Source: Clostridia bacterium
Lineage (GTDB): Bacteria; Bacillota; Clostridia; Oscillospirales; CAG-272
Direction of reading: 5' to 3'
Length of the DNA: 64,000 bases
Assembly: GCA_017451485.1 (NCBI GenBank)
Contig: JAFTOG010000046.1
Coordinates: forward strand, 3,630 to 67,629
In this document: positions 17,291-35,891 of the stretch, piece after piece
Numbering within the stretch: position 1 is the first letter of the stretch
How the letters are laid out: each line of letters starts with the position of its first letter
Translations under genes and position numbers: made by a program
The notes under the pieces: model-generated
Seen by the model: the letters and a program-made list of their open reading frames with translations, nothing else
Told to the model about the DNA's origin: nothing
Database searches by the model: none

Positions 17291-19104
17291 TTCTCGCTAT
17301 CATCCAGCTTAAGAACAGCCATAAATGCCTCGGGAGTAACCTCTACAGAGCCAAGACGACGCATCTTCTTCTTTCCTTCCTTCTGCTTTTCAAGGAGCTT
17401 CTTTTTACGGGTAATATCACCGCCGTAGCACTTCGCAAGTACATCCTTACGGAGGGCTCTGACAGTTTCTCTTGCTATAATCTTAGATCCAATCGCTGCC
17501 TGTATCGGAATTTCAAAAAGCTGGCGGGAGATATTGTCCTTAAGCTTTTCAGCTATTTTTCTTGCTCTTGTATATGCTTTTTCGGAGTGTACTATAAATG
17601 TAAGGGCATCTACAACCTCACCGTTGAGTAGGAAATCAAGCTTAACAAGACTGCTTTCCTCATAATCGGCAAACTCATAATCCAGGGATGCATATCCACG
17701 GCTTCTGCTTTTAAGTGCATCAAAGAAGTCGTATACTATTTCGTTCAAGGGCAGAATATAGTGTAGCTCCACTCGGGTAGCATCAAGATATTTCATATCC
17801 TTAAATATGCCTCTACGGTCCTGACAAAGGTCCATAATACCACCGACAAATTCTGTAGGAGTAATAATATTTGCCCTGACAGTAGGCTCATATGCCTTAG
17901 CTATGGTATCTGTAGGAGGATAGTTGGAGGGATTGTCTATAAATACGGTCTCTCCATTGGTTTTATCTATCTTGTAAATAACGCTTGGAGCTGTTGTAAT
18001 AAGGTCAAGGTTGAATTCTCTTTCCAGTCTTTCCTGTATAATTTCCATATGCAGAAGTCCAAGGAAGCCACAACGAAAGCCGAAGCCAAGTGCAATGGAT
18101 GTTTCTGCCTCAAAGGAAAGGGCAGCATCGTTAAGCTTTAGCTTTTCAAGAGCATCACGGAGGTCATTGTATCTTGCTCCGTCTGCGGGATATATACCGG
18201 AGAATACCATTGGGAGAGCCTCCTTAAAGCCATCAAGGGGCTCGGTGGCACCGTTTTCAGCTGTGGTAACGGTGTCACCAACCTTAGTCTCTGAAACTGT
18301 TTTTATACTTGCTGTAATATAGCCAACCTCTCCTGCCTTGAGCTCCTCTCCTTTTTCAAGACCGAGAGCATTGAGATAGCCCACCTCAACAACATCATAG
18401 ATTGCACCGGAGCTCATCATTTTAATTTTGTCTCCTGCCCTTAATGTGCCATCAATAACACGCACATAAACCACAACACCGAGATAAGCGTTGTAATGGG
18501 AGTCAAAAATAAGACATTTAAGAGGAGCATTTTCATCTCCCTTTGGAGCAGGGATATTTTCCACTATGGCATCAAGAACTGTATCAATATTAAGTCCAAC
18601 CTTCGCAGAAACTGCAGGACAGTCCTCTGCTACTATACCGATAACATCCTCTATTTCCTTTCTTACCCTGTCCACATCGGCACTGGGGAGATCTATCTTG
18701 TTTATAACAGGCACAATTTCAAGGTCGCAGTCGACGGCAAGATAAGCATTTGCAAGGGTCTGTGCCTCTATGCCCTGTGTGGAATCCACCACCAGAAGAG
18801 CACCCTCACAGGCATTTAGCGAACGGGATACCTCATAGTTAAAGTCAACATGGCCGGGAGTGTCGATAAGATTAAGTACATATTCCTCTCCGTCCTTGTG
18901 GGTGTAGTTTATTCTTACAGCTCTTGCCTTGATGGTAATGCCTCTTTCTCTCTCCAAATCCATATTGTCAAGGAGCTGTGCCTCCATTTCACGCTTGGAA
19001 ACAGCATTGGAGTATTCCAGAATACGGTCGGCAAGAGTTGATTTACCGTGGTCAATATGTGCAATAATAGAAAAATTTCTTATTCTTTTCTGCTTTTCGT
19101 TCAT
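17287..19104 (-). CDS. lepA: Elongation factor 4 (LepA)
   Basis: [50 protein letters not shown]. Confidence 0.99.
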
Positions 19105-32328: not shown

Positions 32329-33417
32329 ATGAAAAGATTTGTTGGCTTTGAATGTGGTATGGGAATTGGCGGATGGCTTACCAATTACAAAAGACATCAT
32401 GTTTTGGACGATGAGCAGAAAAAAACGCTAACGGTAGGCGATTTCGAGCATTTTGAAACATACATTACCGAGAAGGATATTAAATATATTGCGTCTCTCG
32501 GCTTCGACCATATCCGCCTCGGCTTTGACCAGATAGTGATAGAGGACGGTAATGGTGGGTACAGATCCGAGATACTCAAGCTTCTTGATAATTTTATCGG
32601 TTGGTGCGAGAAGTACAATCTCAATATTGTATTCAATCTCCACAAGGCTATTGGAAATTACTGTGATGTTGAAGAAAAGGTGTCTCTTATGGACGATCCT
32701 ACATTGCAGGAGGGATTTATCAGACTGTGGACAGATATGGAAAAAATGTGTGCTCACAAGCCGAATATAGTATTTGAAATTCTTAACGAGGTAAAGGATG
32801 TAGATCCGGCACTTTGGAATGATCTTGCGGGTCGAACGATACAAGCAATAAGAAAGATAAGCAGGGACAGAAAAATTATTGTAGGAACAACATGCTGGAA
32901 TAATGTGTACTGCCTTAAATATCAGAAAATTTTTAATGATGAAAATGTAATTTACACCTTCCATATGTATGACCCCTCGGAGTTTACACATCAGCGTGGA
33001 GTTCTTCAGCAAAGTCACTGCTTCTACAACAGAGATATGCCCTATCCCGGCGACATACAACGCTGTAAGGACTTCTACAAATTGGTGTATAATAGAGATG
33101 ATGCGTACACAGGGTACGAGATAATGGATAAAAGGTATATGTACGATGTGATGTATCCGGCAAAGAAATTTATAAAAGAAAACCCCGATGTTATTCTCTG
33201 GTGTGGAGAATTTGGAACTATTCGTCACGCCAAATTGGAGTGGCGTATGGCATGGTTCAAGGATGTAATATCATTTTTGAAGGAAAACTCGATTCCTTAC
33301 TGTGTATGGAATTATTTAAGCACTCCCAATGACGGTAATCGCTTCAGTCTCGTGGATGACGACACGAGAAAAATCCTTTCCCCCGAGCTTAAGGATATCT
33401 TGACAGGTAATTTCTAA
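32329..33417 (+). CDS. GH5 glycoside hydrolase (intracellular, CelC-like)
   Basis: GFDHIRL, FEILNE acid/base, YTFHMY, WCGEFG nucleophile; no signal peptide. Confidence 0.88.
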   Translation: MKRFVGFECGMGIGGWLTNYKRHHVLDDEQKKTLTVGDFEHFETYITEKDIKYIASLGFDHIRLGFDQIVIEDGNGGYRSEILKLLDNFIGWCEKYNLNIVFNLHKAIGNYCDVEEKVSLMDDPTLQEGFIRLWTDMEKMCAHKPNIVFEILNEVKDVDPALWNDLAGRTIQAIRKISRDRKIIVGTTCWNNVYCLKYQKIFNDENVIYTFHMYDPSEFTHQRGVLQQSHCFYNRDMPYPGDIQRCKDFYKLVYNRDDAYTGYEIMDKRYMYDVMYPAKKFIKENPDVILWCGEFGTIRHAKLEWRMAWFKDVISFLKENSIPYCVWNYLSTPNDGNRFSLVDDDTRKILSPELKDILTGNF

Positions 33418-33451
33418 ACGGTTATCCACAACAAAATGAATTATAAAATCA

Positions 33452-33910
33452 AAAAATCCCCGACGCAGTCAAATCCGTCTTAGACGGGGAAAATCCACCC
33501 TCGGTGGATGAAATCCTGCATTGCAGGATGAATATTAGACGGATTTGATTTCATCCAAGGGTGTAACCTTGGATTTCATTTGAACGAAGTGAAGATTTCA
33601 TCGTTGCCGTGCAACGATTTCATTAAATCAACAAGAAAAAGAGAGAACAAATCGGTAGTAAGCCGAAATGTTCTCTCTTTTTTCTGTTAGTGATGTTTTT
33701 GCTGATGCAAAAGTGATGTTATGCTTTGCATAATGATGTTGCTCGCAAAAACTCGCAATGATGTGATGCTTGCCCACTACGCCGTCAGTCGTAACATCAT
33801 TCACGAAGTGGACATCACTGCCGCAGGCAACATCATTTGCCCGCAAGGGCAAGCATCGTTTAGCGTGAATGCTCCGTTAAGAGCATCATACTAATGTGTC
33901 GGGGATTTTT
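33452..33910. repeat. Composite palindromic (REP/BIME-like) element: two mini-hairpin arrays around a central hairpin, within a 16-bp inverted repeat
   Basis: Outer IR aaaaatccccgacgca (33452-33467) / tgtgtcggggattttt (33895-33910). Array A 33469-33623 (gatgaaatc/gatttcat units). Central hairpin 33636-33682. Array B 33691-33857 (tgatgt/acatca units). Confidence 0.85.
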
Positions 33911-33915
33911 ATTTA

Positions 33916-34185
33916 TTACCAAAGTATGAATGCAAATAATATCGGTAAAACAGAGGAAATAATTATAAAAAGATTTACAGTAAATGTTGCATACTCCTCT
34001 TTGCATACGGACATATTCCATCTTATAAATGTACTCTTGAAGATTGAAGCAACAAGGGATAAGATCGCTATGCCGCATATTATAAAGTAAGAATAATCAA
34101 ATACAGGCTTTACAATTACAGCTCGTATTACAATTATCAAAATAGCCAATGCAGGAATGCAACAGCTTTTAAGTCTGTCTGACAT
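33916..34185 (-). CDS. Small hypothetical membrane protein (89 aa, ~3 TM)
   Basis: RBS AGGAG, three hydrophobic segments, co-oriented downstream of pgm. Confidence 0.6.
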   Translation of the reverse strand: MSDRLKSCCIPALAILIIVIRAVIVKPVFDYSYFIICGIAILSLVASIFKSTFIRWNMSVCKEEYATFTVNLFIIISSVLPILFAFILW

Positions 34186-34217
34186 ATAAAATTCTCCTTG
34201 AAATTTTACCTTCGGAT

Positions 34218-35891
34218 TTAACCCTCTATAATCTTGTTGATTATGGTGCGTCTTGCTTCCAGCACCTTGGAAGCGTCAGCCTCATTTTCGCCTCTTACAG
34301 AGTAATAAACCTTGATCTTAGGCTCTGTACCGGAGGGACGAATTGCAATCCATGAGGAGTCTGCAAATACGAATTTAAGAACATCGGATTTAGGAAGATC
34401 CTCAACGCCCTTTTCATAGTCGTAAACTGTAACTATACCGTCGATAAGGGATGAGCCGGCCTCTCTCATAGCCTTCATAATAGCCTGTATCTTTTCAATG
34501 CCGTCAATACCCTTGAGAGTAAAGGAATCAAGCTTATCAAGATAGTAGCCGTATTTTTCATAGATGTCGTTCATAACATCCACAAGAGTCTTGCCCTGAT
34601 TCTTGTAGTATGATGCCATTTCACAGATGAGCATGGATGCTACAACAGCGTCCTTGTCTCTTGCATGAGTACCAACGAGATATCCGTAGCTTTCCTCATA
34701 GCCGATAACATACTCGCCGTTACCCTCTTTTTCAAACATATTCATCTTATCGCCGATAAACTTAAATCCGGTAAGAACCTCTATAATCCTGCATCCGTTA
34801 AGCTTTGCGATCTGTGCACCAAGCTCACTTGTTACTATAGTTTTGATAACTGTGGACTTGCCATTGATTTTATCCTTGTTCATCTTGATTACATAATCCA
34901 CAAGGAGTGCACCAACCTGGTTACCTGTAAAGAGCTTCATGCCGTTGCCTGTGTTAACAGCAATACCAACACGGTCACAGTCAGGGTCTGTACCAAGCAT
35001 AATATCAGCACCAATCTCCTCACAGAGCTTACATCCTATGGCAAGAGCCTCTGCATTTTCGGGATTGGGAGAAATTACTGTGGGGAAGTTACCGTCCTTG
35101 ATTTCCTGCTCTTTAACAACTGTTACATCGTATCCGAGGTCAGAAAGGACCCTGCGTACAGGAACATTACCTGTGCCGTGGAGGGGAGAGTAAACTATTT
35201 TTGCACTTTTTTCGCCGATATCGTGGGACTGAGATTTAACAGCCTCACAGAAGGCATCAAGCACACAGGGATAAATTGATTTTACAAGGCCGTTTGCTCT
35301 TGCCTCGTTTTCGTCAGCTACGGGAATAGCTGTAATATCCTCAATAGCGTTTACATAGGAGATAATCTTATTAGCATCGTCGATAAGAACCTGACAGCCT
35401 GTTTCATCGTATACCTTATAGCCGTTATATTCCTTGGGGTTGTGGCTGGCTGTAACTACAATACCGCCAACACAGCCAAGCTGTCTTACTGTAAAGGAAA
35501 GAACAGGAGTAGGCTCAAGCTCGTCGTAGAGATATGCAGGGATACCTGCCGCAGCCATAACAAGTGCTGCCTCACGGGCAAAGGAGTCTGAGTTGTTTCT
35601 GGAGTCGTAGCCGATTGCCACGCCCTTGGAAACATCCTTGCCATATTTATCGAGAAGGTAATTTGCAAAGCCACGGGTAGCTTTTCTGATAATGTACTTG
35701 TTCATACGGTTGGTGCCTGCACCCATTACGCCACGAAGTCCACCTGTACCAAATTCAAGATCTCTCCAAAAGCGATCCTCAATTTCCTTCTCGTCAAGAC
35801 CTGCGTTAAGCTCATTTCTTGTAGCCTCGTCAAAAAATTCATTAGTACGCCAAAGGTCAAAGGTTTTAACAATTTTTTCAGAAAGTGCCAT
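34218..35891 (-). CDS. pgm: Phosphoglucomutase/phosphomannomutase
   Basis: FGTGGLRG, TASHNP phosphoserine motif, DPDCDR, EESYG, RPSGTEPK. Confidence 0.95.
   Translation of the reverse strand: MALSEKIVKTFDLWRTNEFFDEATRNELNAGLDEKEIEDRFWRDLEFGTGGLRGVMGAGTNRMNKYIIRKATRGFANYLLDKYGKDVSKGVAIGYDSRNNSDSFAREAALVMAAAGIPAYLYDELEPTPVLSFTVRQLGCVGGIVVTASHNPKEYNGYKVYDETGCQVLIDDANKIISYVNAIEDITAIPVADENEARANGLVKSIYPCVLDAFCEAVKSQSHDIGEKSAKIVYSPLHGTGNVPVRRVLSDLGYDVTVVKEQEIKDGNFPTVISPNPENAEALAIGCKLCEEIGADIMLGTDPDCDRVGIAVNTGNGMKLFTGNQVGALLVDYVIKMNKDKINGKSTVIKTIVTSELGAQIAKLNGCRIIEVLTGFKFIGDKMNMFEKEGNGEYVIGYEESYGYLVGTHARDKDAVVASMLICEMASYYKNQGKTLVDVMNDIYEKYGYYLDKLDSFTLKGIDGIEKIQAIMKAMREAGSSLIDGIVTVYDYEKGVEDLPKSDVLKFVFADSSWIAIRPSGTEPKIKVYYSVRGENEADASKVLEARRTIINKIIEG

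What the first reader, a model, noticed from the sequence alone, without database searches (positions are those of the whole stretch)
33452..33910. Two sequence-unrelated hairpin arrays with the same structural grammar, mirrored inside a split terminator
Seen, array A (33469-33623): aaatcc starts at exactly 33471, 33491 and 33511, each enclosing a different 9-nt self-complementary insert (gtcttagac, accctcggt, tgcattgca). The complementary motif gatttcat then occurs at 33547, 33572, 33594 and 33616, again separated by different mini-hairpins. tcaaatccgtct (33469-80) also pairs with agacggatttga (33537-48). Seen, array B (33691-33857): a different core, tgatgt at 33691/33714/33734/33759 and acatca at 33794/33812/33830, with variable mini-hairpins between; gatgcttgccc (33765-75) pairs with gggcaagcatc (33847-57). 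Reversed, B has A's plan: three hairpins closed by a long stem, then three hairpins with the complementary core. A and B flank a 14-bp-stem hairpin (33636-33682), and the whole sits within a 16-bp IR that looks like a former terminator between convergent genes. Inference: a non-autonomous mobile DNA or structured RNA family whose shape rather than sequence is conserved, acted on in trans by an enzyme not encoded here (an HUH/RAYT-like nuclease is one candidate).
Basis: partly seen in the sequence, partly recalled or inferred. Interest (0 to 1): 0.82.

Follow-up and report, generated by a model that had tools for sequence, protein, structure and literature searches.

The report
Mobile Gut-1 hairpin arrays splitting a terminator
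The 459-base block is a gene-less, two-armed copy of a repeat family built from tiny hairpins joined by a repeated short word (partly catalogued in 2010 as the unexplained "Gut-1 RNA"), and related genomes show that it was inserted into the loop of an ordinary transcription terminator.

Summary
Array A is a near-threshold match to Rfam Gut-1 (RF01706: 48.5 bits, cut-off 50). Its second half and both halves of B are weaker Gut-1-like matches. Each arm is a sense array, then a mirrored antisense array. The arms converge on one bidirectional terminator-like hairpin (T).

The block is inserted DNA. Four same-genus genomes keep the flanking genes and an intact terminator hairpin where the window has 430 extra bases. 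Two other own-genome copies also have exact empty sites in the closest relative. Eight of 23 composites lie between the halves of a unique inverted repeat of at least 11 nt.

The family is multi-copy. Its hairpins, and the pairing between mirrored words, keep compensatory changes. The same architecture lies directly upstream of small four-helix-bundle (IVP/Avd-like, PF05635) genes: 5 of 6 in this genome and 54 of 73 loci elsewhere.

No cognate transposase was found. HUH/RAYT and IS630 are not supported. No RNA data were available, and function is inferred. This scan had already found the Gut-1/IVP link on other genomes. The terminator-loop insertion and the two-armed composite are new here.

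The parts
33451..33464 (.). Left half of the split host terminator (A-run plus CCCCGAC), 34 nt after the GH5 cellulase stop codon
   Evidence: Inverted repeat I3. The same bases form an intact hairpin in G020, G043, G049 and G058. The upstream ORF 32329-33417 matches PF00150.
33465..33468 (+). Remnant (GCAG, with the preceding AC) of arm A's outer end. The TTAACGG-loop terminal hairpin that other A copies carry is missing here.
   Evidence: Alignment of 9 own A copies and of 19 copies (A2). All begin ACGCAG, and all but the window copy are preceded by the terminal hairpin.
33466..33538 (+). Arm A, sense array: three mini-hairpins joined by (G)UGAAAU-type linkers; a Gut-1-like unit
   Evidence: Rfam RF01706: 48.5 bits, E 3.7e-8, full model 1-77.
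33537..33548 (+). Distal strand of the long stem that encloses arm A's sense array (pairs with 33469-33480)
   Evidence: Inverted repeat I2. The RNAalifold consensus on 19 copies keeps this stem (cols 8-18 with 93-103).
33543..33625 (+). Arm A, antisense (mirrored) array: hairpins joined by AUUUCAU
   Evidence: Rfam Gut-1 hit on the minus strand, 32.4 bits. GATTTCAT occurs 4 times.
33630..33688 (.). T: shared bidirectional terminator-like hairpin (A-run, about 15-bp stem with a 5-bp inner stem, T-run)
   Evidence: Inverted repeat I1. Folding energy -29.8 (+) and -30.3 (-) kcal/mol, z -8.2 and -8.9. Sequence-similar T hairpins occur at 9 other places in the own genome.
33688..33764 (-). Arm B, antisense array as read on the minus strand (ACAUCA-type linkers; TGATGT on the plus strand)
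   Evidence: Rfam Gut-1 hit 33688-33744 (+), 25.2 bits. Alignment A3.
33765..33861 (-). Arm B, sense array on the minus strand (UGAUGU-type linkers) with its enclosing stem 33765-33775/33847-33857
   Evidence: Rfam Gut-1 hit 33789-33861 (-), 32.9 bits. Inverted repeat I8.
33863..33891 (-). Arm B's terminal hairpin with the conserved TTAACGG loop (the element's right end)
   Evidence: Sequence. It aligns to the terminal hairpin of 13 other B/D copies (A3). The pattern GTGAT-N3-7-TTAACGG-N3-7-ATCAC occurs in 35 of 50 genus genomes, and the reversed control pattern in none.
33892..33897 (.). Junction bases (TA, then ATGT). TGT matches the 3' part of the empty-site loop ACTGT.
   Evidence: Comparison with G020, G049 and G043.
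33898..33910 (.). Right half of the split host terminator (GTCGGGG plus T-run), 5 nt before the end of the 89-aa minus-strand ORF
   Evidence: ORF list.

Best explanation
The block 33465-33894 is a gene-less, two-armed mobile composite that was inserted into the loop of the bidirectional terminator between a GH5 cellulase gene and a small ORF/phosphoglucomutase operon.

Each arm is a Gut-1-class 'mirrored hairpin array'. From the outside inwards it has a terminal hairpin with a TTAACGG loop (lost on the A side here), then 3-4 mini-hairpins joined by a constant word, then a second array whose linkers are the reverse complement of that word. A (plus strand, word UGAAAU) and B (minus strand, word UGAUGU) converge on one strong bidirectional hairpin, T.

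Shown: the insertion, the multi-copy family, selection for folding, and the kinship with arrays that lead IVP genes.

Inferred: transcripts from either flanking gene now read one arm in its sense direction and stop at T, so the element repairs the terminator it split. The folded arrays are RNA platforms. A pentameric IVP/Avd-like four-helix-bundle protein encoded elsewhere probably reads the repeated word, with a different word for each IVP clade. The enzyme that moves the element is unknown.
For: Insertion:
- G020, G043, G049 and G058 (same genus, flanks 78-89% identical) have the same flanking genes and an intact CCCCGAC-loop-GTCGGGG hairpin. In G043 the matches to the two flanks lie 2 nt apart where the window has 430 nt.
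- Own copies at C21 and C22 have exact empty sites in G043, with flanks 91-96% identical.
- Of 23 T-centred composites, 8 lie between a unique perfect inverted repeat of at least 11 nt, against 26 of 655 mismatched-flank controls. For at least 13 nt the counts are 5 of 23 against 8 of 655. Most of these arms start with an A-run.
- Seven of 8 own composites start 7-56 nt after a stop codon, and 5 of 8 lie between convergent ORFs.

Family:
- The own genome has 29 Gut-1 matches at E<=1, 4 of them over the cut-off.
- The A query has blastn hits at E<=1e-3 on seven other own contigs.
- 25 of 50 genus genomes have a match at E<=1e-20.
- The closest relative, G043, has none at that threshold.

Folding under selection (alignment A3, 14 copies):
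- Hairpins: 93.4% of cells paired, 10 of 32 pairs with changes on both sides, 0 of 500 shuffles as high. Slid controls pair at 29-43%.
- Mirrored linker pairs: 97.4% paired, and 5 of 22 pairs compensatory. This includes a concerted switch of the word from UGAUGU to UGAAGU on both arrays. 0 of 500 shuffles reach the cell count or the covariation score.

IVP link:
- 5 of 6 PF05635 genes in this genome have such an array directly upstream.
- 54 of 73 IVP loci from other genomes have one. Controls: 0 of 69 downstream regions, 0 of 73 shuffled upstream regions, 5 of 2000 random windows.
- The word tracks the IVP clade.
- An array alignable with arm B (73.6% identity over 216 nt) sits in front of an IVP gene in G018.
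- An own IVP matches PDB 2rld (E 3.3e-19; 5 chains in the entry).
- Avd is described as a pentameric, positively charged barrel with an 'Avd-binding RNA' element (passages of 10.1101/2023.10.23.563531).
Against: - No RNA data. No RNA run was listed, so expression, strand and termination at T are untested.
- The window copies score below the Gut-1 cut-off.
- There is no IVP gene on the window's contig. No IVP in this genome uses B's word. Arm A and T have no blastn match at E<=1e-4 in 80 IVP loci.
- The word/IVP correlation could reflect linkage and shared descent rather than recognition.
- Strand asymmetry is only modest. G:U against A:C cells on the sense strand are 36 v 9 for A, 26 v 14 for B hairpins, and 1 v 5 for the linker pairs. 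The linker pairing could therefore be a DNA-level inverted repeat.
- No consistent target duplication. TA (or GTA) is duplicated at C22, but the empty loops at the window locus (ACTGT) and at C21 (GATTTTC) hold no TA.
- No mobilising enzyme was found.
- With strict criteria only 4 of 16 relatives' composites showed an A-run/T-run split repeat, against 32 of 295 controls.
Confidence: 0.62

Rival explanations
1. A Tc1/IS630-type (or Correia-like) MITE. The terminal hairpins act as terminal inverted repeats, the element inserts at a TA dinucleotide in terminator loops and duplicates it, and it is moved by a transposase missing from these draft assemblies.
For: - TA directly flanks the terminal hairpins in most junctions. 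Removing the element and one TA rebuilds hairpins with 3-4 nt loops in L056, L059, L065 and own C26a.
- At C22 the empty loop TGTATG in G043 becomes TGTA|element|(G)TATG.
- The element is small, non-coding and multi-copy, and has empty sites.
Against: - PF13358 (DDE_3) was found in 0 of 50 and PF01710 (HTH_Tnp_IS630) in 0 of 50 genus genomes.
- Two of three exact empty loops contain no TA.
- The flanking repeats look variable (TA, ATA, TAT, ATT, AATT, AAAT) and the element boundaries are ambiguous.
- The only DDE transposase in the own genome (PF01609, C38:15534-17054) has unrelated ends. No rve transposase was found.
Confidence: 0.15
2. REP/BIME-like hairpin repeats handled as single-stranded DNA by an HUH (RAYT or IS200/IS605 TnpA) nuclease.
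For: - Hairpins sit at both ends, and there is no clear target duplication at two loci.
- In G003 (L059) both terminal hairpins carry the loop in the same orientation, as IS200/IS605 ends do.
- Y1_Tnp genes exist in 20 of 50 genus genomes.
Against: - The own genome (96.6% complete, at least 8 composites) has no PF01797 hit.
- Among relatives, Y1 genes occur in 11 of 24 with the element and 9 of 25 without it.
- Six Y1 loci were inspected, and none has a TTAACGG-loop hairpin of the element's type.
- In most copies the two end loops are inverted, not direct.
Confidence: 0.06
3. Two ordinary convergent small-RNA genes (or 3'-UTR regulatory modules) kept by the host for their own function. On this reading they are not mobile, and the relatives lost them.
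For: - Weinberg et al. 2010 rated Gut-1 as a likely non-coding RNA (passages of PMC2864571).
- Strong folding and compensatory changes.
- A shared terminator at the 3' end of both arms.
Against: - Four relatives carry a perfectly intact hairpin at the site. Repeated loss would have to be precise each time.
- Copies sit at unrelated loci, with flanks unrelated right up to the terminal hairpin, so there is no conserved promoter.
- The closest relative lacks the family at the three loci examined.
- The promoter scan found no excess: 4 sites against 4.2 expected.
Confidence: 0.1
4. DNA-level arrays of protein-binding boxes (iteron-, centromere- or transposon-end-like). The phased words, about 20 bp apart in two orientations, would be bound on double-stranded DNA, and the hairpins would be incidental.
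For: - Word spacing of 18-25 nt, in inverted orientation.
- A concerted word switch on both arrays is equally expected for a DNA site.
- The linker pairs show no G:U excess: 1 G:U against 5 A:C cells.
Against: - The spacers are maintained as hairpins by changes on both sides: 10 of 32 pairs, 0 of 500 shuffles. Double-stranded binding does not require this.
- The arrays sit 15-80 nt before IVP start codons, and most keep a constant orientation of the word within each word class.
Confidence: 0.07

Closest known systems
Gut-1 RNA motif (Rfam RF01706; Weinberg et al. 2010, PMC2864571, passages read)
   Same: Three mini-hairpins joined by (G)UGAAAU linkers, gut origin, no known function. Arm A's first half aligns over the full model, and 4 sister copies in this genome pass the cut-off.
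   Different: Gut-1 describes one 77-nt unit. Here that unit is one quarter of a 430-nt composite with mirrored arrays, end hairpins and a central terminator. Other arms use other words and fall below the cut-off. The paper's details on Gut-1 are in a supplement I could not open.
Pneumococcal BOX, RUP and SPRITE repeats and Neisseria Correia elements (MITE review PMC10969869, passages read)
   Same: Small, structured, gene-less, multi-copy intergenic repeats. They are modular, often clustered or nested, carry terminator-like sequences (SPRITE), are transcribed with neighbouring genes, and for several no transposase is known.
   Different: None is built from a constant word alternating with sequence-free hairpins and then its mirror image. 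None is linked to a four-helix-bundle gene. Insertion into terminator loops is not a feature I saw described for them. That Correia and RUP duplicate TA is recalled, not read here.
REP/BIME elements with RAYT, and insertion sequences that target REP hairpin loops (recalled from general knowledge; not checked in a paper here)
   Same: Hairpin repeats at gene ends, and hairpin loops used as insertion targets.
   Different: No RAYT/Y1 gene in the own genome and no association in the genus. The units here are arrays, not single 20-40 nt palindromes.
IVP-gene leaders: hairpin arrays in front of PF05635/TIGR02436 'four helix bundle' genes
   Same: Same mirrored architecture, typically 4+4 words. Arm B is alignable with one such leader in G018.
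   Different: The window copy has no IVP gene. T stands where the gene would be, and the outer ends carry a TTAACGG-loop hairpin that the IVP-linked arrays I inspected lack.
Avd of diversity-generating retroelements, and 23S rRNA intervening-sequence proteins (10.1101/2023.10.23.563531 and 10.1101/2024.02.27.582315, passages read)
   Same: Same protein fold family. Avd is a pentameric basic barrel that contacts a structured RNA element. IVP genes sit inside extra stem-loops of rRNA genes, so they too are insertions into hairpin-encoding DNA.
   Different: No reverse transcriptase in this genome. IVP is called functionally uncharacterised. No array has been described with rRNA intervening sequences in the text I read.

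Membership tests
Rfam Gut-1 (RF01706) | Covariance-model score at or above the gathering cut-off of 50 bits | tested here: not met
   Window units score 48.5, 32.9, 32.4 and 25.2 bits. Four other copies in the same genome score 50-63.5 bits.
Rfam Gut-1 (RF01706) | Three hairpins separated by conserved (G)UGAAAU linkers | tested here: met
   33466-33538 aligns to model positions 1-77 with all three hairpins. Arm B keeps the plan but uses UGAUGU.
MITE (miniature inverted-repeat transposable element) | Small, non-coding, many dispersed copies | tested here: met
   The insert is 430 nt. The A query has blastn hits on seven other own contigs, and 25 of 50 genus genomes have a match at E<=1e-20. The only ORFs inside are mechanical ones of 74 and 57 aa.
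MITE (miniature inverted-repeat transposable element) | Empty sites in relatives | tested here: met
   Window locus: G020, G043, G049, G058. C21 locus: G043. C22 locus: G043.
MITE (miniature inverted-repeat transposable element) | Terminal inverted repeats | tested here: inconclusive
   Family copies end in inverted copies of the GCGTGAT..TTAACGG..ATCACGC hairpin. The window copy keeps only the right one.
MITE (miniature inverted-repeat transposable element) | Target-site duplication of fixed length | tested here: inconclusive
   TA or GTA is duplicated at C22, and TA is compatible in 4 rebuilt sites. No TA is present in the empty loops of the window locus and C21.
MITE (miniature inverted-repeat transposable element) | A cognate transposase with matching ends | tested here: not met
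   PF13358 0 of 50 and PF01710 0 of 50 genus genomes. PF00665 has no hit in the own genome. The one PF01609 gene has unrelated ends.
REP/BIME with RAYT | A Y1 HUH (RAYT) gene in the genome that carries the repeats | tested here: not met
   No PF01797 hit in the own genome. In the genus, 11 of 24 relatives with the element and 9 of 25 without it have one.
IVP-leader hairpin array | Lies directly upstream of a PF05635 gene | tested here: not met
   The six PF05635 genes of the genome are on C48, C11 (two), C38, C31 and C37, none on the window's contig C42. The flanking genes are a GH5 cellulase, an 89-aa ORF without a family, and phosphoglucomutase.
IVP-leader hairpin array | Mirrored array: a word repeated about 4 times between hairpins, then its reverse complement about 4 times | tested here: met
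   A has 3+4 and B has 3+4 word copies. IVP leaders are typically 4+4.
Intrinsic (rho-independent) terminator, for hairpin T | Stable stem followed by a U-run, here on both strands | tested here: met
   Folding energy about -30 kcal/mol on both strands, with an A-run before and a T-run after the stem. The simple scanner did not call it, because of its loop and stem limits. Actual termination could not be tested with these tools.

The most novel reading that the evidence does not exclude
IVP (Avd-like) ring proteins and their hairpin arrays form a previously unrecognised selfish RNA-protein module. Each ring clade reads its own 6-8-nt word, displayed four to five times between sequence-free hairpins, which would make a simple and evolvable RNA-recognition code. 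The module and its gene-less derivatives spread by inserting into the loops of DNA-encoded hairpins: terminators here, and rRNA helices in the classical 23S intervening sequences. This would explain two old orphans together, the Gut-1 RNA and the 23S IVS protein.
Probability: 0.15. Interest if true: 0.85.

Novelty: new variant of a known kind. Interest (0 to 1): 0.6.

Why it matters
Gut-1 has been in Rfam since 2010 with no function, no cultured host and no context. PF05635/TIGR02436 proteins are common and are still called uncharacterised.

This window shows that a Gut-1-class array can be a moving part. It is a two-armed, terminator-carrying element that lands in terminator loops, and exact empty sites survive in close relatives. 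It also ties one of its arms by sequence to the leader of an IVP gene.

That gives concrete experiments: IVP binding to its own word, 3'-end mapping at T, and a mobilisation assay. It also warns annotators that long structured 'RNA motifs' at gene ends in gut Clostridia may be insertions rather than host regulators.

If the word-reading ring model holds, it would be a compact, naturally diversified RNA-recognition system.

Tried and rejected
- RNA evidence: the look-up of sequencing runs listed no RNA holder. Only DNA contigs of four runs of one study (X1-X4) were laid. They confirm both junctions of the filled allele in X1 and show no joint across the insert. A missing empty allele there proves nothing.
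- A global alignment of the window with the G020 locus was uninformative to the right of the terminator, because that flank has diverged.
- A strict hairpin scan for TTAACGG loops in the own genome gave 18 hits, mostly unrelated, and missed bulged copies.
- An autonomous copy was sought between two inverted A copies 4 kb apart in G062. Only feoAB and one ORF without a family lie there.
- Reverse transcriptase (retron, DGR or group II intron ideas): no PF00078 hit in the own genome.
- PADLOC: no defence-system model matches three own IVPs.
- Rfam and ARAGORN gave nothing at the loci holding the third arm type (C) or the 'tgaatgacagtcc' repeat.
- The first strict test for split A-run/T-run repeats did not separate real from control flanks (4 of 16 against 32 of 295). 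It was replaced by the length-based test.
- Phyletic association of the element with IVP is uninformative, because 45 of 50 genus genomes have IVP genes.
- A k-mer detector for mirrored arrays in the own genome returned 31 loci, several of them clearly chance. I used it only as a guide.
- Literature: five searches found no paper that links Gut-1 to IVP genes or to mobility.

Full report
**What is there.** AAATCC occurs at 33471/33491/33511. GATTTCAT occurs at 33547/33572/33594/33616, which is 4 of the 6 copies in the whole window. TGATGT occurs at 33691/33714/33734/33759 and ACATCA at 33794/33812/33830. At the window-wide rate each region would hold 0.02-0.17 copies. The long stems, the central hairpin and the outer 16-nt inverted repeat are all found by the repeat finder. 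The block folds with z = -12.7 on either strand.

**Identity.** A permissive Rfam scan gives Gut-1 (RF01706) at four places:
- 33466-33538 (+), 48.5 bits, E 3.7e-8, against a cut-off of 50
- 33789-33861 (-), 32.9 bits
- 33543-33625 (-), 32.4 bits
- 33688-33744 (+), 25.2 bits

Each 'array' is therefore a sense Gut-1-like unit followed by a mirrored antisense unit. A reads on the plus strand and B on the minus strand. Both run into the central hairpin T (33630-33688). T has an A-run before and a T-run after a stem worth about -30 kcal/mol on either strand.

Gut-1 was described in 2010 as a likely non-coding RNA known only from human gut metagenomes (passages of PMC2864571).

**A family, with several words.**
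- The window's genome (2.01 Mb, 51 contigs, 96.6% complete) has 29 Gut-1 matches at E<=1, four above the cut-off, many in inverted pairs.
- By blastn, arm A has hits on seven other contigs. Arm B matches only itself, apart from its end hairpin. T recurs at nine other places.
- Reading the copies shows a common plan: an outer hairpin GCGTGAT..(C)TTAACGG(A)..ATCACGC, a sense array, a mirrored array, then T.
- Composites are two such arms converging on one T. The arm types combine freely: A with B here, A with a non-array arm 'C' at C10, C28, C26 and C21, and other pairs in relatives.
- Flanks are unrelated right up to the outer hairpin.
- The window's arm A has lost its outer hairpin, and only ACGCAG remains.

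**It is an insertion.**
- A DNA search of 41 genomes (the window's own and 40 relatives) found both flanks in G020, and there an intact hairpin AAAAAATCCCCGAC-ACTGT-GTCGGGGATTTT follows the cellulase stop.
- The closest relatives confirm it. In G043 the matches to window 32702-33464 and 33895-34700 are 2 nt apart. G049 and G058 also carry the intact hairpin.
- Two other own copies have exact empty sites in G043. At C21, AAAAAAATCACCACC-GATTTTC-GGTGGTGA is intact there and split by 398 nt here. At C22, CCCCTCCCTG-TGTATG-CAGGGAGGG is intact there and split by about 490 nt here.
- At the C26 locus, own and G043 carry different composites in the same terminator, and G058 has an intact one.
- Over 23 T-centred composites (16 from relatives, 7 own), a unique perfect inverted repeat of at least 11 nt brackets 8, against 26 of 655 mismatched-flank controls. 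At 13 nt or more the counts are 5 of 23 against 8 of 655. An earlier, stricter test did not discriminate (4 of 16 against 32 of 295).
- Seven of 8 own composites begin 7-56 nt after a stop codon, and 5 of 8 lie between convergent ORFs.
- G043 has no match to the element at E<=1e-20, while the own genome has 8 matches. This fits gain in the own lineage.

**How it moves is open.** TA flanks most end hairpins, and four sites rebuild to hairpins with 3-4-nt loops if one TA is removed. At C22 the empty loop does contain the TA that flanks the insert. But the empty loops at the window locus and at C21 have no TA.

The searches for a mobilising enzyme gave these results:
- IS630-type domains: absent from 50 of 50 genus genomes.
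- Reverse transcriptase and rve: absent from the own genome.
- PF01609: one transposase in the own genome, with unrelated ends.
- Y1/HUH: absent from the own genome and not associated with the element in the genus (11 of 24 against 9 of 25).

All these genomes are drafts, so absence is provisional.

**Folding is selected.** Alignment A3 holds 14 B-type and related copies.
- Hairpins: 10 of 32 pairs change on both sides, 93.4% of cells pair, 0 of 500 shuffles reach this, and slid controls pair at 29-43%.
- RNAalifold pairs each sense linker with its mirror partner.
- Those 22 linker pairs are 97.4% paired, and 5 are compensatory. Three sequences switch the word from TGATGT to TGAAGT on both arrays together.
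- The 19 A-type copies are more alike (89% mean column identity), and 4 of 43 pairs are compensatory.
- G:U exceeds A:C on the sense strand for A (36 v 9 cells), less so for B hairpins (26 v 14), and not for the linker pairs (1 v 5).

RNA is therefore likely for the hairpins. The mirror pairing could equally be a DNA-level symmetry.

**Link to IVP genes.** Earlier notes of this scan, on other genomes, reported that complete arrays precede small four-helix-bundle genes. I tested this here.
- The genome has six PF05635 genes. Five have a mirrored array ending just before the ribosome-binding site, each with its own word.
- Of 80 IVP loci fetched from other genomes, 73 had at least 300 nt upstream, and 54 of these carry such an array. 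Controls: 0 of 69 downstream regions, 0 of 73 shuffled regions and 5 of 2000 random windows.
- The word follows the IVP clade. Linked inheritance could produce this by itself.
- In G018 an array alignable with arm B precedes an IVP gene.
- The protein matches TIGR02436 and PDB 2rld, an entry with five chains.
- Avd, its relative, is a pentameric basic barrel with an RNA-binding surface. IVP itself is called uncharacterised.

**Reading.** The window holds an orphan, two-armed derivative of IVP-leader-type arrays that has become a terminator-loop-seeking mobile element and carries its own bidirectional terminator. The insertion and the selection on folding are shown. Transcription, termination at T, IVP binding and the transposition chemistry are inferred. 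No RNA data could be obtained. DNA contigs of four runs confirm the two junctions and show that the element's interior is matched by many other contigs in those metagenomes.

**Novelty.** Five literature searches found nothing that ties Gut-1 to mobility or to IVP. The nearest described kinds are structured gene-less repeats such as BOX, SPRITE and Correia (passages of PMC10969869).

Noticed in passing
G000:C26:8240-8400; also C21:1498-1600 and C15:9774-9870 (outside the window): One A-type copy is interrupted in its centre by a roughly 100-nt structured segment containing 'tgaatgacagtccggtggactgtcaga'. Related segments ending in ...CCACCA follow a tRNA at C15 and precede an array at C21. There was no Rfam hit at E<=0.001 and no ARAGORN call.
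   Followed up: partly
G000:C38:3040-3260 and C21:1898-1960: The one IVP gene without a hairpin array (C38) is instead preceded by short repeats of cttttcact / agtgaaaag. A similar 'gtgaatagtgaaaag' lies beside an array on C21.
   Followed up: no
G000:C37:17487-17890: The IVP gene behind the gatgatata-word array looks interrupted. The PF05635 match covers only profile positions 34-105, and an in-frame stop follows the first 37 codons. It may be a pseudogene or a frameshift.
   Followed up: partly
G000:C38, C31 and C37 IVP loci: Three of the six IVP genes, with their arrays, lie directly downstream of tRNA genes and their terminators. This recalls the family's classical position inside rRNA genes.
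   Followed up: no
L059 (G003:C35) 1510-1990: In this composite both terminal hairpins carry the TTAACGG loop in the same orientation (a 'flipped' right end), unlike most copies, where the loops are inverted.
   Followed up: no
L072 (G018:C13) 1420-1500 versus G000:C11:11780-11850: The IVP cassettes of G018 (word GTGAAGTT) and of the own genome's C11b (word GCGATAT) follow look-alike 3' ends of an upstream gene (...aatatgtt.cc.agaaca.....gttgaaa). The same site may therefore hold different word/IVP pairs in two species.
   Followed up: no
L160 (G043:C33), about 18200-18500: A tandem repeat with a unit of roughly 38 nt (ctgcatttacttaaattctgcactctgcattctgaatt) lies just upstream of the empty terminator in G043. 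The own genome has only about one unit there.
   Followed up: no
window 33440-33925 in runs X1-X4: Summed contig word-depth over the element's interior is in the hundreds to 2,700, against about 12 on the flanks in X1. Many other contigs in those animal-gut metagenomes therefore carry look-alike arms. This is not a copy number.
   Followed up: partly
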